Shown here: piece after piece, positions 4,514-33,504 of the stretch | Position numbering within the stretch: position 1 is the first letter of the stretch | Layout: every line of letters starts with the position of its first letter | Source: Eledone cirrhosa | Taxonomy: Eukaryota | Assembly (NCBI GenBank): GCA_964016885.1 | Contig: OZ024751.1 | Coordinates: forward strand, 21,266,001-21,330,000 | Direction of reading: 5' to 3' | Length of the DNA stretch: 64,000 nt | Translations under genes and position numbers: made by a program | Notes under the pieces: model-generated | Told to the model about the DNA's origin: nothing | Seen by the model: only the letters and a program-made list of their open reading frames with translations | Database searches by the model: none

Positions 4514-4722
4514 GGGATGGACACACGCGTATAACTTGCTGAGTAAGTTCTGTTTAAATTTCTATAGAAATTCTTGTCTGATAACTTTAATTTTTGTACC
4601 ATTTTGTAGAGGGACTGCCAGGTCAAACTTTGATCTGGTCAGTCTCTCAAAATATTCTACGCCTTTAGGCGAAATAGTTAAAAAAAAAGTTTTTTCTTGT
4701 TGAAAAGTCAATATTTTTTTAA

Positions 4723-6504
4723 ATGGCCGAAGCTTCTTCACCAAAATTCGAAGGAGGAAAGGGGAAGATGAACTTACAGCTTCCCCCTGCCACTGTCACA
4801 GTAGCAGAGGTCAAGAAGATAGGTCAGCCAGAGGAAGAATTCTCTCCACCTGTTAACCGACAACTTGACGTTACCATGGCAACAACCCAAAGAACCAACA
4901 GCAACAACAACAACAATGCGACGGTAGAAAACAACACCAATAACAATAACAATAACAACAACAAGACCAATAACGGTGACAACAACAACAATGATAACAA
5001 CAACACCACCAACGACAACAACAACACAAACAAACAAAATTTCTCCTTCGCCGAGACGACAAGGAAAACCCTCGACTATCTGCCAGTAGATATAACAAAA
5101 GCGAAGGAGCTACTGGCGGATGCGAAAAAATATATAGTGTACGGGGAAAATGGTTCATTCACAATCCATTCCCCCCCGGAACTAAAAAGCCAGAGACTCC
5201 TAAACACGGTCATGTTTAGGACAATCTCGAACAAAAGTAAAAAACCAGCTCAACCATCACAGAGCGAGATAGAGCTGGTTTTAAAAGACGTCATGAAGGA
5301 CATCACCTTCATTCAGAAGGATAGACTCTACGGGAGTCTATCCATTCTCATGAAGGACAGGGACACAGCAGTGAAACTGTCCATCAAACCAATCACATCC
5401 ACCGCATACACCTTCTACCCTACGTACATGGGTAGAAGAACACAAAAAATAAAAATCCACACCATCCTGCCGATTATGGACATATGGTGGGTTTTGACAG
5501 GTTTTCTGGACCTGGAGGATGACATGCTGGTGTCCATGGGAAAGGCATCGGGTGACGCGTTCAGTGGAACGAGCCTCGAACTTGTAGTTCAAATGAGGCC
5601 CGAAAGGATCGCCCAGATCCCTGAACGCGTCATACTGGATGATCTAACCTTCATCAACATTACCGTTGAGGGTAGACGGCCCTCGTGTTACCTCTGCGGA
5701 ACCAGAGGTCACCTGAGGGCTGTCTGTCCCCAACTTAATAAGAAAACCCCAATCCTGCCTACACCACCAACAACTGCACAACCAACACAATCACCACAAC
5801 AACCACTACAAAAACAACCACCACAGCTCAAACCAAAACAAAACAATGTCCAACCCATCCCCTCCACTCAAAAAACAAAAACAATTTCCAAAACACCCGT
5901 ACCGCAAACACAACCCGAAAATATACCCCTCCCCTCCAACGCGGAAGATGACCCTAGTTCGTCGTCAGACGAGGAGGAGCACTTCCACACAATCAAAAGA
6001 AAAAAAAGAAAACACACCTCAGACACACAAATGAAAAAAACCCCTCCCCAAAACATAACACTGACACCAACACAAAAGAGCTCACAACAGCAAACAAAAA
6101 ACACCACACAAAAACAAAAACATGCATACACATACATAAATACAAGAAACAAAAAACTGTTAAACATTGTGTACAACAACAATCTAATAAAAACACAAGG
6201 GCCTAACTTCACCCAGGCAGGGGATTTCCCCCACCTCAAAATGATTAAGGCCCCACAGGACACCTATAAAACTTTAAAAAACAATTTTAAAGAGGACGTG
6301 GGTCCCCCCTGCGTCGGGCCCATTAACCGAGTCCTCCTAAAAAACTATCCCACCCCCTCCCCAAACACCCTCACAACTCCAAGCTCCCCAACCACACAAC
6401 ACACTGATGCCCCCACACTTCCACAAACCACCACCCCACCCAACAACCCATCCCCCACCCTAATGGAAATTGTGCAGCCCGATACCCGGGACGCAGAGAG
6501 GTAA
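4723..6504 (+). CDS. T1 ORF1, gag-like nucleic-acid-binding protein
   Basis: 593 aa; VEGRRPSCYLCGTRGHLRAVC CCHC knuckle; Asn-rich and Pro/Thr-rich linkers; homologous to the T2 ORF1. Confidence 0.9.
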   Translation: MAEASSPKFEGGKGKMNLQLPPATVTVAEVKKIGQPEEEFSPPVNRQLDVTMATTQRTNSNNNNNATVENNTNNNNNNNNKTNNGDNNNNDNNNTTNDNNNTNKQNFSFAETTRKTLDYLPVDITKAKELLADAKKYIVYGENGSFTIHSPPELKSQRLLNTVMFRTISNKSKKPAQPSQSEIELVLKDVMKDITFIQKDRLYGSLSILMKDRDTAVKLSIKPITSTAYTFYPTYMGRRTQKIKIHTILPIMDIWWVLTGFLDLEDDMLVSMGKASGDAFSGTSLELVVQMRPERIAQIPERVILDDLTFINITVEGRRPSCYLCGTRGHLRAVCPQLNKKTPILPTPPTTAQPTQSPQQPLQKQPPQLKPKQNNVQPIPSTQKTKTISKTPVPQTQPENIPLPSNAEDDPSSSSDEEEHFHTIKRKKRKHTSDTQMKKTPPQNITLTPTQKSSQQQTKNTTQKQKHAYTYINTRNKKLLNIVYNNNLIKTQGPNFTQAGDFPHLKMIKAPQDTYKTLKNNFKEDVGPPCVGPINRVLLKNYPTPSPNTLTTPSSPTTQHTDAPTLPQTTTPPNNPSPTLMEIVQPDTRDAER

Positions 6505-6528
6505 GTGCCTTTTCTCTTCACCACCAAC

Positions 6529-9500
6529 ATGGCTATGCTAAGAGTAGGCTGTTTAAATGCGCGTGGCCTGGGCTCAACTTGGAAGCAAGCAATGCTTCTA
6601 AATGACCTCAGGTCACAACGTATAGATGTGATGGTTATTTGCGAGGCCCGGATCAGCAACGTGCGACAGCTGGCCCCCACCTTTGATGACTTTGAGATGC
6701 ACGCATCTCTCTGTCAGCCTGGAGGTGGGGGTGGAGTTGTCGTTCTGCTGCAAAAACATCTGGGTCTCGCAACACAGATGGTACATTTGGACCCGGAGGG
6801 TCGACTAGTGGTTCTGGACCTTGGCAGTGGTAAAGGCGGAGCGTTTAGGTTGGTAGCCGCCTACGGCCCTTTCGGGTCAATGCGGCCGGACTTCTTCCAT
6901 CGTCTGGAGACTTTTCTAGGGACGTCCCGCTCCTTGCTATTAGTGGGGGACTGGAATGGTATCCTAGATGCACGTTGGGACTACGTAGGGGCCTGCCCCG
7001 ATAGAGAGGGGTGTAATAGCCTCAAAGGGTTAATCGGTCGATTTGACCTGGCCGATAGATATCGACTAGATTTTCCGACTGCGCCAACCTGGACTTGGGC
7101 AAATCGTAGCGGATCATCTAGGTCGTACCTAGATAGGTTCTTAGTTAGAATTAAGGATAAGGACTTTTTAAGTTGTCCAAAAATGCGCATTGTTGGCTAT
7201 TCAGACCACAAATTAGTGACCTGCATGGTCAACCTTGACAGAACTCATAGACAGGGCCCCGGTTACTGGAAGCTCAACTTGTCCTTGCCGGCAAGTAGAG
7301 CCTACAGGAATCGGATTAGTACGTTAGTTAAGGAACGGTTGACTGGAGCGATCGTCAACAGCAGGTGGTGGGTATCTCTAAAGAGAGAGATTAGAGTAGT
7401 CTCGATAGAATTTAGTAAGGTTCTAGCTGCGGATAGGAATAGGAAGGAAAGGGAGCTAATAGATAGAGTAGAAGAGGCAATTAGAAGCGGCGACGTGGCC
7501 AGAGTGCTAGCGTCGAGAACGGCTTTGAGCCAGTTTTTCGACGCGAAGCACGAAGGCTGCGTTGTCCGAAGTAAAATACGTGCTCTAGGGAACGAGGGGA
7601 CCAAAGCTGTTAGCTGGGCCCGCGTGACAGAGGCCAACAGTGGAACTAAATCCACCATCCGGTCTTTGCGAGACCTGGATGGACGGGCGATTCTTGAGCC
7701 TAAGCAGATGTGTGAGGCCTTTCAAAGGCACTTTGCCCGACTGTTCGGGAGGGGCGGGGAGCCGGTTGGGAACGTGGACTTCGGTCCATACCTCGACGGC
7801 CTGCCGCGCCTCTCGGACAGGGAGGCGAAGTCCTGCGAGGAGCCGATTTCGGCCGCTGAGATAGAGGACGTGCTGAGCCAATGCGGCAAACGCAAATCCC
7901 CGGGTCTCGATGGTCTTCCTTACGAATTATATCTAGCTATGCCGGACTTGTTCCCCGATCTCCTCGAGGCGGTCTACTGCAACTGGCAACAGAACGGGAG
8001 AATTCCCTGTACTGTGACCAAGGGCGTAGTCACGCTAGTGAGGAAGGACGAGAACAAGGGGGACGAAATAAGTAACTTCAGGCCCATAACACTGCTAAAT
8101 ACAGAGTTACAGATTTTGGCCAAGGTGCTAGCAAAGAGGTTGGCGCTTGTCGTGGGCAACCTGGTGGGAGATGCGCAGACATGCGCTATCCCGTCCAGGT
8201 CCATCCATGACAACCTCCACCTCATGCGATACATCATAGAGAGGGTTGGGAACGAACCCGGCTTTGGTGGGGCTCTGATCAACTTGGATCAATCTAAGGC
8301 GTTCGATAGGGTCGACCATGGTTACCTGGATGCGGTGCTAGCGGCGGCAGGCTTCGGAGCCGTTTTCAGGGGCTGGATCACTGCTATGCACAGCAGCCGC
8401 ATCTGCTCTAGGGTCAAGGTGAACGGCTACCTCTCGGAGCCGTTCAAAATCGCGCGGTCCATCCGACAAGGGTGCCCTCTCTCCTCCCTTCTGTATGTAT
8501 TGACTCTCGAGCCACTACTGCGGAAGTTGGAGTTGTTGCAGGGCATCCCTTTGGAACCGGGATTGCGGAAAGCGGTGTCGGCCTACGCCGATGACGTGAC
8601 AGTAATGGTGTCGACGGCCTCCGAAATCGAGGCGGTCGGCACCTTACTGGAGGAGTACGAAAAGTTCACAGGGGCTAAGCTGAACCGGGACAAGTCGATC
8701 GGTTTGCAACTCGGCACGTGGAGGGGCAGACCGATGCCCTCCGATAGCGTCGTCGGACGCTGGACGGAGGGCCCGGTGAAGTTGCTCGGGGTCTGGTTCG
8801 GACCGGACCTCCAGGTGGAGAAAAACTGGGCGGAGGTTACGAACAGAGTGTTTGCACTGACCCAGAAGTGGGCCAGTTGCAAACTATCCCTGAAAGGTCG
8901 GGCGGAGGTGGCGAACACCTACATAGCGTCCGTCATCTACTACCGCCTGACCGTAGTGCCCTGCCCAAGGGAAACCCTCACCAAGATGGAGCGCGCGCTC
9001 TTCCAATTCCTTTGGAAGAGGCGGGCTCCTATGGTGAGGAGATCCATCTGCTGTCAACACCCTTCGAAAGGAGGGCTGGGGATGCCGTGGCTAATGATGC
9101 GTAAACACGCATTAAGGCTACGGCACCTCTACGTATTCCTCACCGGACAACCGGTGTGGGCCTCGTTTGTGAGACGAACCTTTCCCAGACTCGTCTCACT
9201 CACCGAGCTGCAATCCTGGGTCAAGCAAAGACCGAGAAAACTGGGCGCCTGGCACACTGAGTGTGCCCAGGCGCTCACCGCCCTCTGGCAGGCGGATCCG
9301 GTTATCAGTGGAGACTCCACCGCAACATTCTATAGAGGGCTGGTACGCAGCAGGTGCGACGACGCCCTCGGAGAAGCCCTAGACATGGAGGAGGACGAAC
9401 TGGCCAGCCTTTTCGGTAGGACATTCAGCCCGGGACCTATGGACAACTTCCAGAAGTCCCTGGCCTGGCAGTGCTACCGAGGGGCTTTACCCGTTCGAGA

Positions 9501-9966
9501 AAGGCTCTACAGACACGGGCGCCCGGGTAGGGACCCCGCCAAAAAGATCTGTCCCAGATGCGTGTGCGACGAGGAAACCGTTGCACACGCATTAGTACAC
9601 TGCTCGGGCGTAGCCGATCTGTGGGGCTATGTCGAACAACTGCTGTCAAGGGTGGGACCGATCCGGTTGACCACCGAGTCTATTGTAATGATCAAGCCGC
9701 CTCCCCCCTTCAAAGATGAAGCAGAGGCGGTGTTTCTGTGCGTAATAGCCATGGCGAAAGAGGTTGTATGGTGGACGCGTCTGAAAGGACTGAGGTCGGG
9801 CACCTTTCTCTCTGGCCAACAACTGGTCCGTTTCTTCCGATATCATTTCGGAAGAAGGATCAGGATGGAGAGAGAGGTGCTGCACCCCAGCCGTTTCTAT
9901 GAAAGATGGGTGAAAGTGGCGAGAATGGCCCGTGTGAATGGGCCTTCACTCTACATCAGACTATAG
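6529..9966 (+). CDS. T1 ORF2, APE endonuclease + reverse transcriptase + CCHC
   Basis: LNARG, GDWN, YLDR and SDH (APE); KSPGLDG, FRPITLLN, DQSKAFDRV, RQGCPLS and YADD (RT); CPRC..H..C; first ATG at 6529 in AACATGG context. Confidence 0.96.
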   Translation: MAMLRVGCLNARGLGSTWKQAMLLNDLRSQRIDVMVICEARISNVRQLAPTFDDFEMHASLCQPGGGGGVVVLLQKHLGLATQMVHLDPEGRLVVLDLGSGKGGAFRLVAAYGPFGSMRPDFFHRLETFLGTSRSLLLVGDWNGILDARWDYVGACPDREGCNSLKGLIGRFDLADRYRLDFPTAPTWTWANRSGSSRSYLDRFLVRIKDKDFLSCPKMRIVGYSDHKLVTCMVNLDRTHRQGPGYWKLNLSLPASRAYRNRISTLVKERLTGAIVNSRWWVSLKREIRVVSIEFSKVLAADRNRKERELIDRVEEAIRSGDVARVLASRTALSQFFDAKHEGCVVRSKIRALGNEGTKAVSWARVTEANSGTKSTIRSLRDLDGRAILEPKQMCEAFQRHFARLFGRGGEPVGNVDFGPYLDGLPRLSDREAKSCEEPISAAEIEDVLSQCGKRKSPGLDGLPYELYLAMPDLFPDLLEAVYCNWQQNGRIPCTVTKGVVTLVRKDENKGDEISNFRPITLLNTELQILAKVLAKRLALVVGNLVGDAQTCAIPSRSIHDNLHLMRYIIERVGNEPGFGGALINLDQSKAFDRVDHGYLDAVLAAAGFGAVFRGWITAMHSSRICSRVKVNGYLSEPFKIARSIRQGCPLSSLLYVLTLEPLLRKLELLQGIPLEPGLRKAVSAYADDVTVMVSTASEIEAVGTLLEEYEKFTGAKLNRDKSIGLQLGTWRGRPMPSDSVVGRWTEGPVKLLGVWFGPDLQVEKNWAEVTNRVFALTQKWASCKLSLKGRAEVANTYIASVIYYRLTVVPCPRETLTKMERALFQFLWKRRAPMVRRSICCQHPSKGGLGMPWLMMRKHALRLRHLYVFLTGQPVWASFVRRTFPRLVSLTELQSWVKQRPRKLGAWHTECAQALTALWQADPVISGDSTATFYRGLVRSRCDDALGEALDMEEDELASLFGRTFSPGPMDNFQKSLAWQCYRGALPVRERLYRHGRPGRDPAKKICPRCVCDEETVAHALVHCSGVADLWGYVEQLLSRVGPIRLTTESIVMIKPPPPFKDEAEAVFLCVIAMAKEVVWWTRLKGLRSGTFLSGQQLVRFFRYHFGRRIRMEREVLHPSRFYERWVKVARMARVNGPSLYIRL

Positions 9967-10275
9967 GTGAGGAAGATGAAAGACCAAGGGAGCACCCCTT
10001 CTCTGTGCTCCTGAGGAGAAGGGTTGCACACTTTTTTCGGGGGTGTGTGCGACCCCCCCAAGGCGCCTCCTCTCTATTGAGGATTTTGTTAAAAATTTTA
10101 TTTTTTGTTATATCTTATTTTATTTTTATATTTTGTTATTGCCTCCTCCTTATTGAGGACGCCTTTTTGTGTAAACTCCCCCCTTTGTACTTGTCCCACT
10201 TTTGATGCCCTAGTGGCAAATAAAAGAAATATATCTATCTATCTATCTATCTATCTATCTGTCTGTCTATCTATC

Positions 10276-10586
10276 CACTAAATTTACTGAAAGGTGGGTG
10301 AATGAAGCGAAAATGGCCCGAGTGATTGGGCCTTCTCTGTTTATAAGCCTGTAGGTTGAAGAAGAGATCAAAAGGAAGAAAGGAGGACTTGCACAACACG
10401 CTCCTGAAGTTGAGGGTTGTTCTATCGACGGGATATTAAACAACCCATTTGTGGTGCCTCCCCCCTATAGGGGATTTCCATTGTTATAATTGTTTGTTTC
10501 AATATTTTTACACAACTGTATGTAAAATCCCCGGCATGTCTTTGTATTGTCCCTTTTCTTGTGCGCCCTTGTGGCAAATAAAGAAA
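10276..10586 (+). mobile_element. 5'-truncated Tx1 copy (end of ORF2 + 3'UTR)
   Basis: Encodes ERWVNEAKMARVIGPSL; same 3' terminus; TATC flanks. Confidence 0.9.
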
Positions 10587-10626
10587 TCTGTCTATCAATC
10601 TCTCTATCTATCTATCTATCTATCTA

Positions 10627-11190
10627 TTGTCGCGGGTGGGACCAATCCGGTTGACCACCGAGTCCATTGTCATGATCAAACCGCCACCCTACTTCAAAAA
10701 CGAAGGAGAGGCGGTTTTCCTTTGTGTGATAGCTATGGCGAAAGAGGTTGTATGGTGGACAAGGTTGAAAGGGCTTAGGTCAGACACCTTTCTCTCCGGC
10801 CAACAACTGATTCTTTTTTTCAAATACCATTTTGGAAGAAGAATCAGGATGGAGAGAGAGGTGCTGTACCCAAGCAAGTTTTATGAAAGGTGGGTGAATG
10901 TGGCAAAGATGGCCCGAGTGGTTGGGCCTTCTCTCTATATCAGCCTGTAGGTTGAGGAAAAGGAGGAGGAGAGGAAGGGAGTACAAACTCTTCATACTCC
11001 TGGAGATGAGGGTTGCACATTTTTTTTTCGGGGGTATGTGTTACCCATATAAACTGTCTCCCCCTATTGGGGAAAATCGACTAATTTTTAAATTGCATTT
11101 GTGATAACATTTTACACGTTTTTATTGTATGTAAACTTCCCCCTTTGTATTTGTCCTCTTCTTTTGTGCCCCTGTGGCTAATAAAGAAAC
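10627..11190 (+). mobile_element. 5'-truncated Tx1 copy (last ~106 codons of ORF2 + 3'UTR)
   Basis: SRVGPIRLTTESIV...GPSLYISL matches the T1 ORF2 C-terminus; TATC flanks. Confidence 0.92.
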
Positions 11191-11191
11191 A

Positions 11192-11222
<31 letters not shown>

Positions 11223-11223
11223 A

Positions 11224-11267
<44 letters not shown>

Positions 11268-11854
11268 AGAAAGATATCTATCTATCTATCTTTCCATCAA
11301 TCCTATCTATCCATTGACTCATCCATCTGTTCATTCATCCACCTATCAATCCATAAATCCACCCATCAACCGGCCAATCTACCCGCCCCCAATCCACCCA
11401 CCTGATCAACCACCAACCAATCCATCCACCCATCCATCCATCGATCCATCCATCTACTCATCCATCTAGTCTGTGAACTGTACCAAGATCCAGTTGATGA
11501 CTCAACGACTGTAGTCAAGGAGACCAACCAACAAACCATCCAACTGGTCATCCAACATTGACCCAACGACCGAGCAATTATGTGGTCACACCACCAGCTA
11601 GAAATAGCAGCTAAATATATATATCTCTCTCTCTCTGAAAGTATCCTGGCCATCATTAAATATAAGAGGACAGGGAAGGACAGCGACAATATAGTTCTAG
11701 ATATAAACATGGTACAAACATTGCAAAAAATAAAAATAACAAATGCAGGGAGGCCACAACCTCTGCAACGTCTTTGAATGTGGGCTGACCTCGGGCTAAA
11801 CAACAATAACAAAAGCAAACCCGCTGACCAACTCACCATCATACTAAGCAATCA

Positions 11855-15462: not shown

Positions 15463-16016
15463 AAATTTCTTTATTAGCCACAAGGGCACAAACGAAGGGG
15501 ACAAATACAAACGGGGAGTTTACATACAGGTATATGAAAATAAAACTATTAATAAAACAACAAATAACAATTGAAATCCCCAATAGGGGGGAGGTATTAC
15601 ACAGGGGTTGTACACACCCCGAAAAAATGTACAACCCTCATCTCCAGGAGCACCAAGAGTGAGTACTCCCTTCCTCTCTTCCTCTTTTTCCTCAACCTAC
15701 AGGCTTATATAGAGAGAAGGGCCAACCACTCGGGCCATCTTTGCCACATTCACCCACCTTTTATAAAATGTGCTGGGGTACAGCACCTCTCTCTCCATCC
15801 TGATTCTTCTTCCAAAATGATATTTGAAAAAACGAATCAGTTGCTCGCCGGAGAGAAAGGTGTCTGACTTCAGCCCTTTTAACCTCGTCCACCATATAAC
15901 CTCTTTCACCATAGCCATAACACATAAGAAAACCGCCTCGCCCTCGTTTTTGAAGGAGGGTGGCGGTTTGATCATGACAATGGACTCGGTGGTCAACTGG
16001 ATTGGTCCCACCCGCG

Positions 16017-16017
<1 letters not shown>
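15463..16017 (-). mobile_element. 5'-truncated Tx1 copy, minus strand, next to (GATA)n
   Basis: SRVGPIQLTTESIV...GPSLYISL; terminal CCCTTGTGGCTAATAAAGAAA; same orientation relative to the repeat as the plus-strand copies. Confidence 0.92.
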
Positions 16018-16091
<74 letters not shown>

Positions 16092-23184: not shown

Positions 23185-23878
23185 TAATGGTTTCTAATTT
23201 TAGCACAAGGCCGACAATTTAAGAGGGCGCGGGCGAGTAAATTGTTTATATCCAGACCGTTATTCTATTTCATTGACCTTGGAAGGACGAGAGGAAAAGT
23301 TGACCTCTACGGAATTTGAACTCTGAGTGTAAATAGCCGGAACAATATCGCCCAGCATTTGTTCGACGCTCTAACGATTCTGCCAATTCACCGCCCTTTG
23401 TTTGTCTGCAAAATAATTCTTTCTACATTTGGCACCAGGCAAAGAACTTTAGTGAAGGTGGAAGTCGATTAAATCGGCACCAGTGAGTTACTGGTACTTT
23501 ATTTTATCGACCATGTAATGATTAAAGGCAAAGCTAACTTCGGTGGAATTTAGACTCACAACATAAAAGGCCATAACTATATACCGCAAAGCCTGTTGTA
23601 TGTTGTTCTACCGATCCTGGTACTTTATTTTATCGACCCGGTAGTGATGAAAGGCAAAGCTAACCTCGGTGGAATTTGAACGCAAAACGTAAAGGGTCGT
23701 TACTGCATGCCACAAAACATGTTGTCGGATGCTCTACCGATAGTGCTACTTTATTTTATCGACCCCCATAAAGAGGAAAAGCAAAGTTAAACTAGACAGG
23801 ATTTGAACTCGGAACGTAAAGAGTCGTAATTAAAGCATTCTGCTCAATGCTCTTTTGATACCGCCAATCTACTGCCAT
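23185..23878 (-). mobile_element. Cluster of diverged S1-like SINEs including a tandem trimer of head+core (~125-bp period)
   Basis: TACTTTATTTTATCGACC repeated near 23495, 23621 and 23747. Confidence 0.75.
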
Positions 23879-26866: not shown

Positions 26867-27642
26867 ATTCTCCATCTTCTTCCATCATTCCATCTTCAAC
26901 ACACATGCTACCGAAGTACCGAACCGCTGATGTTTCCAATGATATTTCTTATTGCCATTGGCTATCTTTGGAAATCAAATGTTTTGTGTTTATTTTCATC
27001 CTATTTCTTTCTTCTCCAACTCCTTTATTGCCTCTTCTTCTTCTTTTTCTTCTAATTCTGTTGTTGCTGTTGTTTTGTATTATTTTCATTTTTTTTTTTA
27101 CGTTCTCCAGTCCTTCGCTTTCTCTCCGTTTATTGATCAGTAAAAGTAATGCCAAGCCAAAACAAACACCAAAAAATCCAAAGCTAAGCAAGTAGAATTG
27201 GATGTGTTGGTGGGTGTTGTGAAGACGGAAGTTAAGCAAAGAATCATTGATGGAAGGAAGGAAGGAAAGAAGGAAGGAAGAAAAGAAGGGAGCAAGTGAT
27301 GCATAAGGGGGGGGGGGTAAGGTGGAAGTTATGTTCTATTGACATCATTTATTGCCAGCTGTTAGGAGATTTAGTTTCAAATAATTCGTTTTATTTTTGT
27401 CACCATCAATATTATTATTATTATTATTATTGAATGCCATGGTTGACGGAGGCTCGGCTCTGTAAGGTATAGTAATTTTTAACCGTTAAAACAATTGTAA
27501 ATTGTTTAAAACTTGAACCAAATTGTTGATAAAGACACCCTCCTCCTCGTGAGAGGGGTCTTTCTGTCCGTTATTTGGCCCTTCGGGGTTAAATAGCCAG
27601 TTATTGGGGTTTTGTACCCAAAATTTCATTTTAAACAAAAAC

Positions 27643-29742
27643 ATGGCTACCAAAAAAAAAAAATTTCATACGTCACTCCCACTCATTCCGTCTTCTTCTT
27701 CCTCAATCATCACTACAGGAGAGAGAAGATTGTCTCTCTCCCTCCCTTCTTTAAATGTGTCTCTCTCCCTACCTTCTCTTTCGCAAGCGACGAAAGAAAA
27801 GAAAAGTCTCGTGCAAAGCGTGCAAGGTTTCTCCACGACGACGACGACAGCGACGAAACAGGTGTGCGGGAAATACGAAAACCCAGTTCATTCGTCTGAC
27901 GTCAGGAATAATAGCAGTAGCAGCCGTAATAACAACAGCAACAGTGACAATGAAAACAACAGTAGCAGCCGCAACAGCATCACCAGCAGCATAAACAACA
28001 ACAGCATTAGCAGCAGCAACACCAACAACAACCACAGCAACAGCGGCGGAGGCAGTAGTCGTAGTACCTGCAGCAACAACAAAAGTACCAGCAGCTCTGA
28101 CGACAACAACAACAGCAGAGAAAAACCAATCTCATTTGCAGGTATTGCGAAAAACCTGGAAACAATCCTCATAACAAATGAGGAATTAGAGGAAGCGAAG
28201 AAGATGGTGACAAAGAACGGACACCGAGCAATCTGCAAGGCAGCGAAAAATTTTTTCGAAACCCAAGAGCACTGTACGGTCACGTACCGTACAGTAAGTA
28301 CAAAATCCCGTAGGGTGGAAAGAGCCACAGAGGCCCAAATACAAAAAGCCTTGGGGTCTGTGTGGCAGAGGAAAACGCACATCACCCGAGGCAAAAAATA
28401 CGCCACCGTAGACGTACTTTTTGCCACACCCCAGGAGGCAAAGGCCCAATCAGTAGTGACCCTAAGGAGCGAAGAAATGGTGTTGGTGCCCTCCTACTGC
28501 GGGCAAAAAATTGTGAGGGTCAAACTGACCCACGTCCCCCCCGGAATGACCCCTTCTTGGCTGGCCGCGTCTGTCCTCGTCGGAATCGAGGACAAAACAA
28601 CTGTACTGCAAGTACAGAAAAAAGTAAGAGAAGATTGGGTCGGCTCCTCCATTGAGATGCTAATCCAAACCAACCAGGAGTGCATCGAAGCTATCCCGGA
28701 TGTGATAGACTTCGATAACGGCACTCAACTGCCCATAAGTGTTGAGGGCAAACGCCCGAAATGCTTTCGCTGTGGATCGAAGACTCACCTCAGGGCCTTC
28801 TGCAACGAGAAGACCCTGAGAAAGGAGAAAACCCCCCTCCTCCCGAATCCGGTTCCACGGCTACCAGCAACAGGACAAGCGGCAACCAGGAACGATAGGT
28901 CCGTGGCACCCATACCCACTCCACGGAAATCAAAGACAGCAGCAGCAGTGGAAATATTAACAACAACAACAGCAATACCAAATGCAGCTGCAACAGAGAC
29001 TCCAGTGCAAACATCACCAACAACAACAAGTGAAAGAGTGGAGCTGGTACCCCTCCCCGACCTTACAGAATCAGACATGGAGTGTGAGGTGGGAGAGGGA
29101 TGGCAAAAGGTCTCAAGAAGGCACAAACGCAGAAGCAGCGCATCGTCGCCTTTGAAAAGGGAGGAAAGAAATGAGAAAAGGGTAAAGTCTACTGCAAAGA
29201 GACCCACAGCAGCAACACCACCAACACCATCACCACCCACACCAGCACCACCATCACCACCGGCGACAACCCCACCGCCAACAACACCTTCAACACCACC
29301 ACCACAAGCACCAACATCGCAAACACAACAACAAAACACACACACCCAGCAACAACGACAAGAAAATAGCAGAACCACACCCCACCCCCAGAAAAACAAA
29401 TGCACGGCAATAAACACACACAACAAGAAACTAATGACTTACATAATTGAACACACAGACATTTCACAACAGGACTACATAATACCAGCACCAATCAAAA
29501 CGCCAACTAACATAAGACTGCTAAAAATAGCACAGAAACAATACACAAACATTAAAACGAAATTCCCCAACGCAGTTGGTGATTTCAGGGACCTAGGAGG
29601 AACCATTAATCGAAGAGTATATTCAGACATTCTCTTAGAAGAGCCGACGACCAGCCGAAGGGACGATTCAACGGTCCCTTCACCAGACGATCAAGTGAAA
29701 AGGGATGTAAAAACCATCCCTCCTCTACCAAAAATACGGTAA
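27643..29742 (+). CDS. T2 ORF1, gag-like protein
   Basis: ATG at 27643; VEGKRPKCFRCGSKTHLRAFC knuckle; Ser/Asn-rich and Pro/Thr-rich linkers. Confidence 0.9.
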   Translation: MATKKKKFHTSLPLIPSSSSSIITTGERRLSLSLPSLNVSLSLPSLSQATKEKKSLVQSVQGFSTTTTTATKQVCGKYENPVHSSDVRNNSSSSRNNNSNSDNENNSSSRNSITSSINNNSISSSNTNNNHSNSGGGSSRSTCSNNKSTSSSDDNNNSREKPISFAGIAKNLETILITNEELEEAKKMVTKNGHRAICKAAKNFFETQEHCTVTYRTVSTKSRRVERATEAQIQKALGSVWQRKTHITRGKKYATVDVLFATPQEAKAQSVVTLRSEEMVLVPSYCGQKIVRVKLTHVPPGMTPSWLAASVLVGIEDKTTVLQVQKKVREDWVGSSIEMLIQTNQECIEAIPDVIDFDNGTQLPISVEGKRPKCFRCGSKTHLRAFCNEKTLRKEKTPLLPNPVPRLPATGQAATRNDRSVAPIPTPRKSKTAAAVEILTTTTAIPNAAATETPVQTSPTTTSERVELVPLPDLTESDMECEVGEGWQKVSRRHKRRSSASSPLKREERNEKRVKSTAKRPTAATPPTPSPPTPAPPSPPATTPPPTTPSTPPPQAPTSQTQQQNTHTQQQRQENSRTTPHPQKNKCTAINTHNKKLMTYIIEHTDISQQDYIIPAPIKTPTNIRLLKIAQKQYTNIKTKFPNAVGDFRDLGGTINRRVYSDILLEEPTTSRRDDSTVPSPDDQVKRDVKTIPPLPKIR

Positions 29743-29777
29743 GTGGTCTTTCCCATCTTTTCCACTCTATTTTAAAC

Positions 29778-32700
29778 ATGACCTCACTCAGAATAGGCAG
29801 CATAAATGCGCGTGGCTTGGGGTCGTCATGGAAGCAGGGTCACCTGCTCAACGACCTCAGGTCACTAAACATAGATGTAGTGGCCATCAGCGAGACCAGA
29901 ATCTCCGAAGCACGGGCCTTCGCACCGATCTTCGGCGGCTACGATGTGTACGCATCTCCCAGCCGTCCTGGATCGGGTGGAGGAGTTGCTGTGCTTTTTC
30001 GGAGAGGTTTGGATCTCGCCATACGGGCCATCTTCCTGGACCCAGAGGGTAAGCTGGTGGTGCTGGACGTGACCAGCGGAGACGGGCAAGCTTTCAGGCT
30101 AGTGGCCGTCTATGCCCCGACAGGAGCAGGGCGGCCTGATTTCTTCCGGCGTCTGGAGACCTTTCTTGGAACGTCGCGCTCTTTAGTGTTAGTGGGCGAC
30201 TGGAACGGGATCTTAGATGCACGCTGGGACTGTGTGGGATTAGCGGATAGGGGTGGAGGGTGCAAGAGCCTCACCAACCTGCTCAGGCGTTTTGAACTGT
30301 CTGACAGGTACCGATTGGATTTCCCGAATGTGCCAATGTGGACTTGGACAAACCGCATAGGGTCATCCAGATCATATCTAGATAGAGTATTTTGTAGGGA
30401 AATAGATAGGTCTAGCATAGGCTGTCCACAATTCAAGATAGTCAGCTACACGGACCACAAATTCGTGATCTGTGTGCTTGACTTAGATAGGCTTCATAGA
30501 CGAGGACCCGGCTACTGGAAGCTAAACGCGTCCTTACCAGCGCGCAAGGCCTACAGAGACCGGATTAGCGAACTAGTTAAGCGGGCGTTGACGGGGGCCA
30601 TCGTCAACAACAAGTGGTGGTTTGCTCTGAAAAGAGCGATTAGAATAGAATCGATTAGGTTTAGTAAGGCTTTAGCAATAGAGAAAAATAGAGCAGAGGG
30701 AGAACTAGTTAGAAAATTAGACGAGGCGCTTAGCAAAGGCATTGCGACCGACGTGCTTGCGGCGAAATTGGCCCTTGACCAATTCTTCAATGCAAAGCAC
30801 GAAGGCTGCGTTGTCAGAGCTAGGGTGCGTGCTCTCAGACACGAGGGGACGAAAGCCGTTCAATGGGCCCGAGTGGCGGAGGCGCGTCGTGGCAACAAAG
30901 CCACGATCCGGTCTTTGGTGGACCACGACGGGCGCATGCTACTCGATCCCGGGCAAATGTGTGAAGCTTTTCAGCGACACTTCGCTCAGCTGTTCGGGGG
31001 CAGCGGGGGGCCGGGTAGAGGGATGGACTTTAGTGTCTACCTCGACGGACTGCCGCGGCTCTCGGCCACTGAGGCGAAGTGTTGCGAAAAGCCGATAACA
31101 GCCGCTGAAGTAAGGGAGGCAATGACTGGCTGCACAAGGGGTAAATCGCCTGGTTTGGATGGTCTGCCCTATGAACTTTACGTACAGATGCCAGACTTGT
31201 TCGGAGGCCTCTTGGCGGACGTCTACTGCAACTGGCAACAGAACGGGAGAATTCCCAGTTCTGTGAGCCGAGGAGCGGTGGCACTGCTGAGAAAGGATCC
31301 GAACAAGGGGGATAACATAGACAATTTCCGGCCCATAACTCTGCTAAACACAGAGTTTAAGATTTTGGCCAAGGTGCTAGCAAAGAGGTTGGCGCTTGTC
31401 GTTGGTGGTCTGGTGGGAGAGGCGCAGACATGCGCCATTCCCGACAGATCCATCCACGACAACCTCCACCTCATGCGATACATCGTAGAGAGGGTAGCTA
31501 GGGAACCTGGCACGGGTGGGTCCTTGATCAATTTAGATCAGTCGAAAGCTTTCGATAGGGTCGACCATCGTTACCTAGCGGCAGTCCTGAGGGCGGCTGG
31601 CTTTGGGCCCGTCTTCAGAGGCTGGATCGCTGCCATGCACAGCGACATCTGCTCTGTGGTGAGAGTGAACGGTCACCTGTCGGAACCGTTCAACATCATG
31701 CGCTCGGTCCGCCAAGGATGTCCCCTCTCGTCCCTCTTGTACGTATTGACTCTCGAGCCATTACTGCACAAACTGGAGACGTTGAGGGGAGTCCCGCGCG
31801 AACTAGGATGCGGAAGATCCGTGTCAGCATATGCGGACGATGTCACCGTAGTGGTGTCGAACGCCAAACACATCGAGGCGATCGGCACTACACTAAGAGA
31901 ATACGAAGCGGTGACAGGAGCAATGATCAACCAGGAAAAGTCAGTGGGCCTGCAGCTCGGCACCTGGAGAGGCAGGTCCATGCCGTCCAACAGCGTCGTC
32001 GGGCGCTGGACGGACGGACCGGTTAAATTGCTAGGGGTCTGGTTCGGTCCGGACCTCCAGACGGACAAAAACTGGGACGAGGTGACGAGCAGGGTGGCTT
32101 CTCTCACCCAGAAATGGGCGGAGAGGAAGCTATCCCTGAAAGGTCGAGCGGAGGTGGCTAACGCGTACATCGCGTCTGTCATCTGCTACCGCCTAACCGT
32201 CGTACCTTGTCCTAAGCCTCGCCTGACTGCGCTGGAGCGTTTGCTCTTTCGCTTTTTGTGGAAGGGACGTGCTCCGATGGTCAGGCGGTCCATCTGTTGT
32301 CAACACCCGCTACGTGGAGGGCTGGGCATGCCGTGGCTGATGATGCGCAGGCACGCGCTCAGGCTACGACATCTCCACCTCTTCCTCGACGGTGATCAGG
32401 TGTGGTCGCCGTTTGCTAGACGCGTTTTTCCCCAGCTCGTTTCCTTGACGGAGCTGCAGTCCTGGGTCAAGCGAAGACCGAGAGGGAGCGCCTGGAGACT
32501 GGAATGTCTTCAGGCGCTCACAGCCCTCGACCAATCGGGCAATGTGATCGGTGGAAACTCCACCTCGGCGTTCTATAGAGGATTAGTGGAGGGGAAGAGC
32601 GACGACGTACTTGGGGAAACTCTAGGCGTCGACGAAAATCAACTAGCCAATCTCTTCGGAAGAACCTTCGGGCCAGGGCCTATGGACAACTTCCAGAAAT

Positions 32701-33197
32701 CTCTGGCCTGGCAGTGCTACCGAGGAGCCTTGCCAGTTCGGGATAAACTCTACAGGCATGGAGGTGCCGTCAGCCGGGCATGTCCGAGATGCGCGCAGGG
32801 CGACGAAACCGTCCTGCACGCACTCGTCCAGTGTCCGAAAATTGCTGACTTGTGGGTTTATGTCGAACACCTGCTGTCGCGTTTAGGACGGATCCAGCTA
32901 TCATCTGAGTCTATCGTGAGGATTGCCCCGCCCTCCTCCTTTAGCCGGGAAGGGCAGGCAGTTTTTATCTGTCTGGTGGCCATGGCGAAAGAGATAGTAT
33001 GGTGGACACGTTTGAAAGGGCTGAAGACGAGCACTTACCTCTTCGGTGATGCTCTGATTGACTTTTTCAAATTTCATTTGAAAAGGAAAATCAGAGTAGA
33101 GAAGGAAGTGCTCTCTTCCCAGCATTTTGTTGAAAGATGGGTGAGAGAAGCAAGAATGGCCCGAGTGAATGGGCCGACTCTGAGTATATATCTGTAA
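29778..33197 (+). CDS. T2 ORF2, APE endonuclease + RT + CCHC
   Basis: 1139 aa; INARG, SETR, GDWN, YLDR and TDH; YADD; CPRC..H..C; colinear with T1 ORF2. Confidence 0.96.
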   Translation: MTSLRIGSINARGLGSSWKQGHLLNDLRSLNIDVVAISETRISEARAFAPIFGGYDVYASPSRPGSGGGVAVLFRRGLDLAIRAIFLDPEGKLVVLDVTSGDGQAFRLVAVYAPTGAGRPDFFRRLETFLGTSRSLVLVGDWNGILDARWDCVGLADRGGGCKSLTNLLRRFELSDRYRLDFPNVPMWTWTNRIGSSRSYLDRVFCREIDRSSIGCPQFKIVSYTDHKFVICVLDLDRLHRRGPGYWKLNASLPARKAYRDRISELVKRALTGAIVNNKWWFALKRAIRIESIRFSKALAIEKNRAEGELVRKLDEALSKGIATDVLAAKLALDQFFNAKHEGCVVRARVRALRHEGTKAVQWARVAEARRGNKATIRSLVDHDGRMLLDPGQMCEAFQRHFAQLFGGSGGPGRGMDFSVYLDGLPRLSATEAKCCEKPITAAEVREAMTGCTRGKSPGLDGLPYELYVQMPDLFGGLLADVYCNWQQNGRIPSSVSRGAVALLRKDPNKGDNIDNFRPITLLNTEFKILAKVLAKRLALVVGGLVGEAQTCAIPDRSIHDNLHLMRYIVERVAREPGTGGSLINLDQSKAFDRVDHRYLAAVLRAAGFGPVFRGWIAAMHSDICSVVRVNGHLSEPFNIMRSVRQGCPLSSLLYVLTLEPLLHKLETLRGVPRELGCGRSVSAYADDVTVVVSNAKHIEAIGTTLREYEAVTGAMINQEKSVGLQLGTWRGRSMPSNSVVGRWTDGPVKLLGVWFGPDLQTDKNWDEVTSRVASLTQKWAERKLSLKGRAEVANAYIASVICYRLTVVPCPKPRLTALERLLFRFLWKGRAPMVRRSICCQHPLRGGLGMPWLMMRRHALRLRHLHLFLDGDQVWSPFARRVFPQLVSLTELQSWVKRRPRGSAWRLECLQALTALDQSGNVIGGNSTSAFYRGLVEGKSDDVLGETLGVDENQLANLFGRTFGPGPMDNFQKSLAWQCYRGALPVRDKLYRHGGAVSRACPRCAQGDETVLHALVQCPKIADLWVYVEHLLSRLGRIQLSSESIVRIAPPSSFSREGQAVFICLVAMAKEIVWWTRLKGLKTSTYLFGDALIDFFKFHLKRKIRVEKEVLSSQHFVERWVREARMARVNGPTLSIYL

Positions 33198-33458
33198 ACT
33201 AAAGGTGGAAAACTGGGAGAGGGCACTTGCCTTGGTGGTCAGGGTCATTGTGGCTTTTTACTGGGCTTTCTCCACAAATGTCCCTCCGAAGTCTCCCCCC
33301 TATTGGGGAATTTTTCATTGTTATTTTCATTGTTATTTTTGTTACATCCTCTATTTTTGTTTTTTTTACACGCAGAAATGCCCATTTGTACCGTCCTGCA
33401 TTGTCCTGCACTGTCCTTAATGTCTACTTTATGTAAACCCTTGTGGTTAATAAAGAAA

Positions 33459-33504
<46 letters not shown>

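What the first reader, a model, noticed from the sequence alone, without database searches (positions are those of the whole stretch)
27411..33500. Sister Tx1 element with near-identical endonuclease uses a different microsatellite, (ATT)n: a target switch
Seen: T1 and T2 ORF2 proteins are colinear and highly similar and share the 3' terminus CCCT(T/A)GTGGYWAATAAA(A)GAAA. T1 sits in (TATC)n and T2 in (ATT)n on both sides. The APE hairpin loop is nearly the same (WTWANRSGSSRSYLDR vs WTWTNRIGSSRSYLDR). Known: this beta-hairpin contributes to target choice in L1, TRAS1 and R1 endonucleases. Inference: either very few residues re-program specificity, or the read-through RNA 3' tail (microsatellite in place of poly(A) after AATAAA) guides priming. 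The second case would be an RNA-influenced targeting system. T2 is the only (ATT)n copy in this window.
Basis: partly seen in the sequence, partly recalled or inferred. Interest (0 to 1): 0.76.

Follow-up and report, generated by a model that had tools for sequence, protein, structure and literature searches.

The report
Sister jumping genes with different targets
Thousands of copies of related jumping genes in this animal genome sort cleanly by family into ATT repeats, TATC repeats or one spot of another transposon; the cutting enzyme, which differs at 39% of positions between the two elements flagged, likely picks the site, and full-length copies likely bring a short stretch of target-like sequence at the front of their RNA that helps seal the insertion.

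Summary
The family-level target difference is real. The first 100 of 9,110 T2-type ends all run into ATT-type sequence and the first 100 of 3,421 T1 ends into TAT(C/A/T); neither list holds the other's target.

The endonucleases are only 61% identical, less than the RTs (77%). They differ at the residues aligned to two of L1's three base contacts (P197, N118). T1 and T2 sit in two old sister clades, so this is not a recent switch.

The 3' repeat is genomic target, not a copied tail: copies at non-repetitive sites show plain 7-17 bp duplications starting 2 nt after GAAA.

Two things were missed. First, a closer sister, T3 (RT 90% identical to T1), sits at one position of a 72-bp repeat inside a piggyBac-like MITE (99 of the first 100 of 333 ends). 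Second, full-length copies of all three families carry target-like sequence at their 5' end that truncated copies often lack, best read as an R2-like RNA leader that anneals to the target. No RNA data were available.

Verdict: new members of known microsatellite- and transposon-targeting Tx1 LINEs, with a likely undescribed 5'-leader feature.

The parts
27432..33460 (+). T2: intact full-length Tx1-type non-LTR retrotransposon of the (ATT)n-targeting clade
   Evidence: same head and end in other genomic copies
27411..27431 (+). (ATT)7 upstream of T2: target DNA and/or carried 5' leader
   Evidence: 37 of 37 distinct heads have 6 or more units
27643..29742 (+). T2 ORF1, 699 aa, with CCHC knuckle; central part resembles zf-CCHC and ZCCHC3-like RNA-binding clusters
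   Evidence: lead only; no Pfam hit
29778..33197 (+). T2 ORF2, 1139 aa: APE endonuclease, RT, zf-RVT
29778..30482 (+). T2 APE endonuclease domain, 61% identical to T1's
30120..30122 (+). Thr115, aligned to L1-EN Asn118; Thr in T2/T4/T5, Phe in T1/T1ct/T1b/T3
30357..30359 (+). Ile194 at the hairpin tip, aligned to L1-EN Pro197; Ile in T2/T4/T5, Ser in T1/T1ct/T1b/T3
33443..33460 (+). 3' terminus: conserved motif ending AATAAAGAAA plus a 2-nt family-variable dinucleotide (TC); no poly(A)
33461..33502 (+). (ATT)14 downstream: genomic target
4514..10231 (+). T1: intact full-length element of the TAT(C/A)T-targeting clade
4723..6504 (+). T1 ORF1, 593 aa, CCHC knuckle
6529..9966 (+). T1 ORF2, 1145 aa
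4453..4513 (+). (TATC)n between a short upstream T1-group 3' fragment and the T1 head
10232..11311 (+). (TATC)n target tract holding two further 5'-truncated T1-group copies (termini at 10571 and 11174)
15470..16091 (-). 5'-truncated T1-group copy with a TATC tract on its 5' side

Best explanation
T1 and T2 are young, intact members of two sister clades of Tx1-type LINEs that sit in different repeats, and their diverged endonucleases likely choose the nick site, while full-length RNAs likely begin in upstream target sequence that anneals to the target to close the 5' end. Steps: (1) Inferred: the APE domain nicks at TAT(C/A)T (T1 group), at ATT in (ATT)n (T2, T4, T5) or at TT/ACTCTATAT in a MITE repeat (T3). 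(2) Shown: the 3' junction falls exactly 2 nt after GAAA in all families, with no poly(A) and no added repeat units at resolvable sites. Inferred: RT starts at a fixed point set by the 3' motif, with at most a few bases of RNA-primer pairing. (3) Shown: many truncated copies end in ordinary short duplications. (4) Shown: full-length copies have a fixed, target-like 5' extension (about 6 ATT units for T2, 16-27 nt of TATC type for T1, 23 to about 48 nt of MITE repeat for T3). Inferred: it is copied from the RNA and anneals to the target as in R2. (5) Repeated insertion into the same tract gives the head-to-tail arrays seen.
For: Target fidelity: and the cross-table of 237 distinct junctions. 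EN divergence and contact residues. T3 and a T1b-like family share their last 25 nt yet go to different targets (58 vs 42 of 100 rows; all 27 distinct TAT-type loci checked were closest to T1b or too short to place), so the terminal motif does not choose. A 12-bp footprint suffices for T3: the 12-mer occurs 81,149 times against 347 for the control. EN swapping moved SART1 to TRAS1's site (PMC7265360, passages). No tail copied: duplications of 14, 17, 12, 16, 7, 8 nt at L125, L377, L382, L387, L207, L224 and 9 nt at L347. Leader: (a) 99 of the first 100 of 314 T3 heads share a junction 65 nt into the repeat unit, and the exception has no T3 body; (b) the one truncated T3 of 20 has a plain 9-nt duplication; (c) 5' partial units switch from local to consensus letters towards the element, local at 8/9, 3/15, 0/5 informative columns; (d) T1 copies in (TA)n sites still have a TATC-type head (L127, L380); (e) an inverted T1 carries (ATCT)4 at its internal joint (L121); (f) T2 heads have 6 or more ATT units in 37/37, against 4 or fewer in 9/53 tails (p=0.009) and in 7 of 12 truncated copies with a surviving ATT junction. 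R2 precedent: PMC11331408, abstract and Introduction.
Against: No biochemistry and no RNA. EN divergence does not exceed background at the T3 split: T1/T3 77%, T1/T1b (same target) 79%, T1/T1ct (same target) 88%, so EN causation rests on precedent and residue position. L1 work disagrees on the hairpin: loop grafts altered specificity but point mutants did not (PMC1950540, abstract), while PMC8565326 (passage) says grafts did not alter sequence-specific nicking. Only one truncated T3 was found. The hybrid-unit gradient rests on about five loci and could reflect edge effects of array homogenisation. L121 could be a later DNA inversion. Three truncated T2-group copies at ATT/CTT borders show no duplication longer than ATT, and 13 of 27 truncated T1 rows gave no duplication or one under 7 nt. 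The 7-of-12 count drops 12 of 24 rows with 0-1 ATT units (chimeric 5' halves or decayed flanks). T3's true nick could lie 4 nt further in, at TATAT.
Confidence: 0.7

Rival explanations
1. One reading: a read-through 3' microsatellite tail pairs with the nicked primer strand and is the main chooser of the target.
For: No poly(A) at any junction seen. AATAAA lies only 6 nt from the element end, so cleavage would plausibly fall in the flank (general knowledge, untested). Junction phase is invariant. T2-type ends at ATT/CTT borders keep one ATT. Short RNA-target pairing aids SART1 and R1Bm (PMC7265360, passages).
Against: No extra units at non-periodic sites. Many T1 targets match the presumed tail for only 4-5 nt. 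TATA-type insertions do not cluster among 29 CT-variant copies. An apparent TATA excess in the CT variant (7/15 vs 7/85, hand count) fell to 12/88 in further rows (p=0.33), and that variant has about 26 EN changes of its own.
Confidence: 0.1
2. The 5' leader is a specificity filter: a loose endonuclease nicks many sites and insertion completes mainly where the leader can anneal.
For: T3 is almost wholly full-length (314 heads vs 333 tails; 19 of 20 fetched) and wholly on target. The join shifts to where homology exists (L344, L364). L1 authors propose post-nicking selection (PMC1950540, section 23).
Against: Truncated copies lack the leader yet are on target (L347; many T1 and T2 rows). Full-length T1 lands in (TA)n without TATC homology (L127, L380). 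No T3 was found at a TAT site genome-wide. For R2, annealing was not a major determinant of efficiency (PMC11331408, abstract).
Confidence: 0.1
3. No RNA leader: the fixed 5' extension comes from a family-specific top-strand cut (long duplication or 7-nt deletion) plus later homogenisation of the repeats.
For: Fixed family-specific duplications or their absence are read this way for Utopia (PMC4640811, passages). Tandem repeats homogenise.
Against: T3 5' partial units match non-consensus letters of the 3' unit at only 11 of 121 columns. The truncated T3 has a 9-nt duplication. TATC heads occur in (TA)n sites. L121 carries the repeat at an internal joint.
Confidence: 0.07
4. The elements are not targeted: they create the microsatellites as tails or accumulate passively in them.
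For: 14 of 30 T2 heads directly follow another Tx1 end; the genome is very rich in microsatellites.
Against: Near-identical T1 copies have different 3' flanks that are duplicated at their 5' ends. T3 occupies one base position of a non-microsatellite repeat.
Confidence: 0.03

Closest known systems
Kibi (TC)n and Koshi (TTC)n of fish; crocodilian Tx1 families in (TTCC)n/(TTTC)n
   Same: Related APE-type Tx1 LINEs with different microsatellite targets (PMC4494074, passages and section 15; PMC3812793, passages).
   Different: Targets here are (TATC)n/(TA)n and (ATT)n, not listed for Tx1 in those passages. Relationship to Kibi/Koshi could not be tested: no named sequences were available.
Xenopus Tx1 in Tx1D; crocodilian Tx1-Mar
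   Same: Tx1 LINEs that target a non-autonomous DNA transposon; Tx1D is piggyBac-type (PMC4494074, passages). T3 targets a repeat inside a TTAA-flanked MITE.
   Different: Different target element; T3 is a close sister of microsatellite-targeting families (RT 87-90%). The original Tx1L paper was not held.
R2 retrotransposons
   Same: RNA 5' end retains upstream target sequence; cDNA anneals to it and gives a uniform 5' junction (PMC11331408, abstract and Introduction).
   Different: R2 has one ORF, a restriction-like nuclease, an HDV-like ribozyme and an rDNA target. Here two ORFs and an APE nuclease; no Rfam ribozyme match at E<=0.5 in five loci with full-length elements; the leader is inferred from DNA only.
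SART1, TRAS1, R1Bm
   Same: APE-directed repeat targeting, EN-swap retargeting, short RNA-target pairing at RT start (PMC7265360, passages).
   Different: R1 clade, telomeric or rDNA targets, poly(A) at SART1 junctions; none seen here.
Dong (TAA)n elements
   Same: Same microsatellite as the T2 group (PMC3812793, passage).
   Different: Different lineage; a candidate element of that kind shares the ATT tracts here in the opposite orientation (not tested).

Membership tests
L1 group, Tx1 clade non-LTR retrotransposons | ORF2 with N-terminal APE endonuclease, RT and C-terminal zinc finger | tested here: met
   Pfam Exo_endo_phos, RVT_1, zf-RVT; best solved-structure hits are L1-EN and its loop grafts
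L1 group, Tx1 clade non-LTR retrotransposons | Separate ORF1 with CCHC knuckle | tested here: met
   CX2CX4HX4C in both ORF1s; Atlas leads to zf-CCHC and ZCCHC3-like clusters
L1 group, Tx1 clade non-LTR retrotransposons | RT phylogeny groups with named Tx1 families | not testable with these tools
   Nearest database proteins (P0002-P0012, 39-44%) carry no informative names; the Tx1 label rests on architecture and recall
L1 group, Tx1 clade non-LTR retrotransposons | TPRT marks: fixed 3' ends, 5' truncations, short target duplications | tested here: met
Target-specific Tx1 families (over 20% of flanks of one type, PMC4494074) | Family-level target specificity | tested here: met
   T2 100/100 ATT-type, T1 100/100 TAT-, T3 99/100
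Kibi / Koshi | Target (TC)n or (TTC)n | tested here: not met
   236 ends are followed by pyrimidine runs against 31,938 generic ends; the T2-group ones fetched mostly sit at ATT/CTT borders
R2-like 5' annealing | RNA carries upstream target sequence | tested here: inconclusive
   Several DNA signatures agree; no RNA run to test directly
R2-like 5' annealing | HDV-like 5' ribozyme | tested here: inconclusive
   No Rfam ribozyme match; divergent folds would be missed and no dedicated descriptor was run
R2 clade | Single ORF with restriction-like endonuclease | tested here: not met

The most novel reading that the evidence does not exclude
These APE-type LINEs use a target-homologous 5' RNA leader as a second, RNA-encoded address: the leader both seals and selects insertion sites, which is why T3 is almost entirely full-length and confined to one base of a MITE repeat, and why a family can lock onto whatever repeat its founder landed in. 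Swapping the leader would then partly retarget the element.
Probability: 0.12. Interest if true: 0.85.

Novelty: new variant of a known kind. Interest (0 to 1): 0.52.

Why it matters
One genome holds a young, intact set of at least seven related families on three target classes, with tens of thousands of junctions. That makes the protein-versus-RNA question for APE-type targeting directly testable by domain, tail and leader swaps. T1 versus T3 (RT 90% identical; loose microsatellite versus a single site) is a much better pair than T1 versus T2. If the 5' leader is confirmed, homology-directed 5' joining, known from R2, would extend to an L1-group element. It would also caution that 'repeat on both sides' and long fixed 'duplications' reported for such elements need not be pure target DNA.

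Tried and rejected
RNA evidence: no RNA holder listed. Laying four contig sets on T2 gave no empty allele and no end information. Rfam on five loci: one weak unrelated match. Heritable-tail test: the CT-variant TATA excess was not replicated and TATA copies did not cluster. A separate (TTC)n T2 subfamily: rejected; of 20 fetched, those with a readable 5' junction had (ATT)n there, across three end variants. T3 copies in TATC: one T3-like terminus, which proved to be T1b. L122 and L352 first looked like leader evidence but are palindromic duplications of local flank, probably DNA fold-back, and were set aside. Direction of the switch: an early RT tree put a broken T5 with the T1 group; with intact T5 the ATT families group together (96 outside EN, 57 in EN), so direction is unresolved. 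Earlier scan findings: none in this genome or by sequence, one unrelated word match. Two papers were not held. No structure prediction was run.
Full report
What is in the window. T2 is an intact element at 27432-33460: ORF1 27643-29742 (699 aa, CCHC knuckle), ORF2 29778-33197 (1139 aa; APE endonuclease, RT, zf-RVT), (ATT)7 before and (ATT)14 after. T1 at 4514-10231 has the same build and lies in (TATC)n. Seven termini of this kind occur in the window and only T2's is followed by ATT. The window is G000:C11:21266001-21330000 of a 3.0-Gb animal genome. An octopus is a guess from genome size, repeat content and one fragment hit (P0049); it is not established. The label Tx1 rests on architecture, since no named reference was available for a tree.

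The endonucleases are not near-identical. EN identity is 144/235 (61%), RT 248/321 (77%), ORF2 overall 68%. By alignment to L1-EN, T2 Ile194 corresponds to Pro197 and Thr115 to Asn118, two of the three residues that touch bases in the L1-EN/DNA structure (PMC8565326, passages). Both split the clades cleanly: Ile/Thr in T2, T4, T5 and Ser/Phe in T1, T1ct, T1b, T3, among 17 such EN positions. The tree has two sister clades, ATT families and TAT/MITE families, with the outgroup between them (support 96 and 97 outside EN; 57 and 96 in EN). So T1 versus T2 is the oldest split in the set, and its direction is unresolved. EN also diverges between families with the same target (T1/T1b 79%, T2/T5 73%), so divergence alone does not prove cause.

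The targets are real and family-wide. Pattern counts are whole-genome; each pattern ends in a three-letter set and so undercounts slightly; rows are the first 100 in genome order. T2-type ends: 9,110, all 100 rows continue into ATT-type sequence, about 15 with a mismatch in the first 10 nt (hand count), none TATC. T1 ends: 3,421, all 100 continue TAT. T5 ends: 3,301, ATT-type or AAT-type in nearly all rows. Generic ends: 31,938 against 130 for the control. Among 237 distinct junctions in fetched loci (a sample enriched on purpose for odd targets), the T1 group gave TATC 114, TATA 15, TCTC 9, other 3; the T2 group ATTA 47, ATTC 7, other 3; T3 ACTC 38, ACTA 1. T2 is young: the 40 scored matches to its 3' end were 100% identical, and 14 of 30 heads directly follow another Tx1 end.

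A third target. T3 (RT 90%, EN 77% to T1) sits at one base of a 72-bp tandem unit inside a TTAA-flanked, piggyBac-like MITE. Of 333 T3-type ends, 99 of the first 100 are at that site, and the exception is a T1b copy. T3 shares its last 25 nt with a T1b-like family that goes to TATC, so the terminal RNA motif does not choose the site. The 12-mer around the junction occurs 81,149 times against 347 for the control, and a 16-bp satellite accounts for only 840 of these, so an ordinary 12-bp protein footprint could explain the fidelity.

The 3' repeat is target, not tail. In every family the junction is GAAA, two family-variable bases, then target. At non-periodic sites the target start is duplicated at the 5' end with nothing added: 14 nt (L125), 17 (L377), 12 (L382), 16 (L387), 7 (L207), 8 (L224), and 9 (L347). 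Not all resolve: 13 of 27 truncated T1 rows gave no duplication or one under 7 nt, and three truncated T2-group copies at ATT/CTT borders show none longer than ATT. Many T1 ends continue into unique sequence after TATCT. If tails set targets, off-type insertions should breed true. A first hand count suggested this (CT end variant 7/15 TATA versus 7/85), but it fell to 12/88 in further rows, TATA copies did not cluster among 29, and that variant has its own EN. No poly(A) was seen at any junction, so a pairing of a few bases at RT start remains possible, as for SART1 and R1Bm (PMC7265360, passages).

The 5' repeat is partly carried. For T3, 99 of the first 100 of 314 heads join the repeat at the same base, 65 nt into the unit (the exception has no T3 body), while the single truncated copy among 20 has a plain 9-nt duplication. 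In 23 full-length copies the 5' partial unit is not a copy of the 3' unit (11 of 121 variant columns match). Where both neighbouring units share a local variant, the partial unit is local at 8/9 columns in its first 32 nt, 3/15 in the next 16 and 0/5 next to the element (about five loci, indel columns counted singly). In L364 the join shifts to give a 53-nt extension where the local unit is short. For T1, 30 of 30 heads have TATC-type sequence upstream and 19 share a CTCT variant at the junction; two full-length copies in (TA)n sites have TATC-type heads of 27 and about 16 nt (L127; L380); and L121, an inversion of the twin-priming type (model described in PMC10760644, passage), holds (ATCT)4 at its internal joint. 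For T2, the first 100 of 2,641 heads all follow ATT repeats; 37 of 37 distinct heads have 6 or more units, against 4 or fewer in 9 of 53 tails (p=0.009; loci chosen for pyrimidine tails excluded) and in 7 of 12 truncated copies with a surviving ATT junction (12 of 24 rows with 0-1 units dropped as chimeric or decayed). The simplest reading is an RNA that starts in the upstream flank and whose cDNA end anneals to the target, as described for R2 (PMC11331408, abstract and Introduction). This is inferred from DNA; how the RNA 5' end is made is unknown.

Mechanism. Most likely (0.70) the endonuclease picks the site, RT starts at a fixed point two bases past the conserved motif, and the leader closes full-length insertions. 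Rivals are tail guidance (0.10), the leader as a site filter (0.10), a purely DNA-level origin of the fixed 5' junction (0.07) and no targeting (0.03). T3's near absence of truncated copies (314 heads, 333 tails) is unexplained and is the best hint for the filter model; against it, leaderless truncated copies are on target.

Comparison with what is known. Related Tx1 families on different microsatellites (Kibi, Koshi, crocodilian families) and on DNA transposons (Tx1 in Tx1D, Tx1-Mar) are published (PMC4494074, passages and section 15; PMC3812793, passages), so a target difference between sisters is a known kind of event. An Octopus vulgaris repeat annotation lists 13 recently active L1-Tx1 families; the term Tx1 occurs once in its main text, with no target analysis in the passages seen (PMC13282606; supplements not opened). 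Nine paper searches listed no description of (TATC)n or (ATT)n Tx1 targets or of a target-homologous 5' leader in an APE-type element. Kojima and Fujiwara 2004, the Tx1L and TRAS1/SART1 transcription papers and Repbase could not be read, so prior description is possible. PMC1950540 (abstract, section 23), PMC4640811 and PMC9004415 (passages) were also seen.

Verdict. The flagged switch is real at family level but old and not between near-identical enzymes, and the 3'-tail idea is not supported. The finding leads to a tighter pair (T1/T3) and to a likely R2-like 5' leader. New variant of a known kind; interest 0.52.

Noticed in passing
L235, L236, L238, L331-L350 (e.g. G000:C1:4.23-4.26 Mb): T3 family, about 330 copies, at one base of a 72-bp repeat in a piggyBac-like MITE; nearly all full-length, and on the largest contigs mostly near the ends.
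   Followed up: yes
L002, L011, L019, L028, L029 (after the T2 3' end): A second non-LTR element, recalled as Dong/R4-like, sits in the same ATT tracts in the opposite orientation; not tested against a library.
   Followed up: no
L376, L380, L373, L382: A T1 variant has a different endonuclease (88% identical) on a linker, RT and C-terminus 98-99% identical to T1: natural exchange of the 5' half. T2-group copies with a foreign 5' half joined at T2 position 2263 also occur (L312, L314, L316, L323, L329).
   Followed up: partly
all families: The two bases between GAAA and the target vary freely (TA, CA, CT, TC, GT, AC, GC, CC, TT) while the motif before them is conserved; cause unexplained.
   Followed up: partly
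L250:6900-7443 (minus strand); also L242, L247: A SINE-like repeat ending in ATT lies in ATT tracts; in L250 its body is fused to a Tx1-type 3' terminus, a possible partner SINE or chimera.
   Followed up: no
L037, L040, L054, L060, L249, L304: Several T1 copies are truncated at the same point (T1 position 4736-4737), suggesting a 980-bp non-autonomous derivative or a truncation hot spot.
   Followed up: no
L352:5900-6150; L122: Palindromic duplications of the TATC flank at 5' junctions, centred on the head of a neighbouring element; probably fold-back of the top strand.
   Followed up: partly
L332, L333: Two T3 copies 40 kb apart share about 590 nt of non-target sequence from an LTR-like element ahead of the leader; 5' transduction or local duplication.
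   Followed up: partly
G000:C1:799128-811205: A 16-bp satellite built from the same 12-mer as the T3 site; no T3 junction seen in it.
   Followed up: partly
window 23489-23765: Two copies of a 126-bp SINE-like unit in tandem.
   Followed up: no
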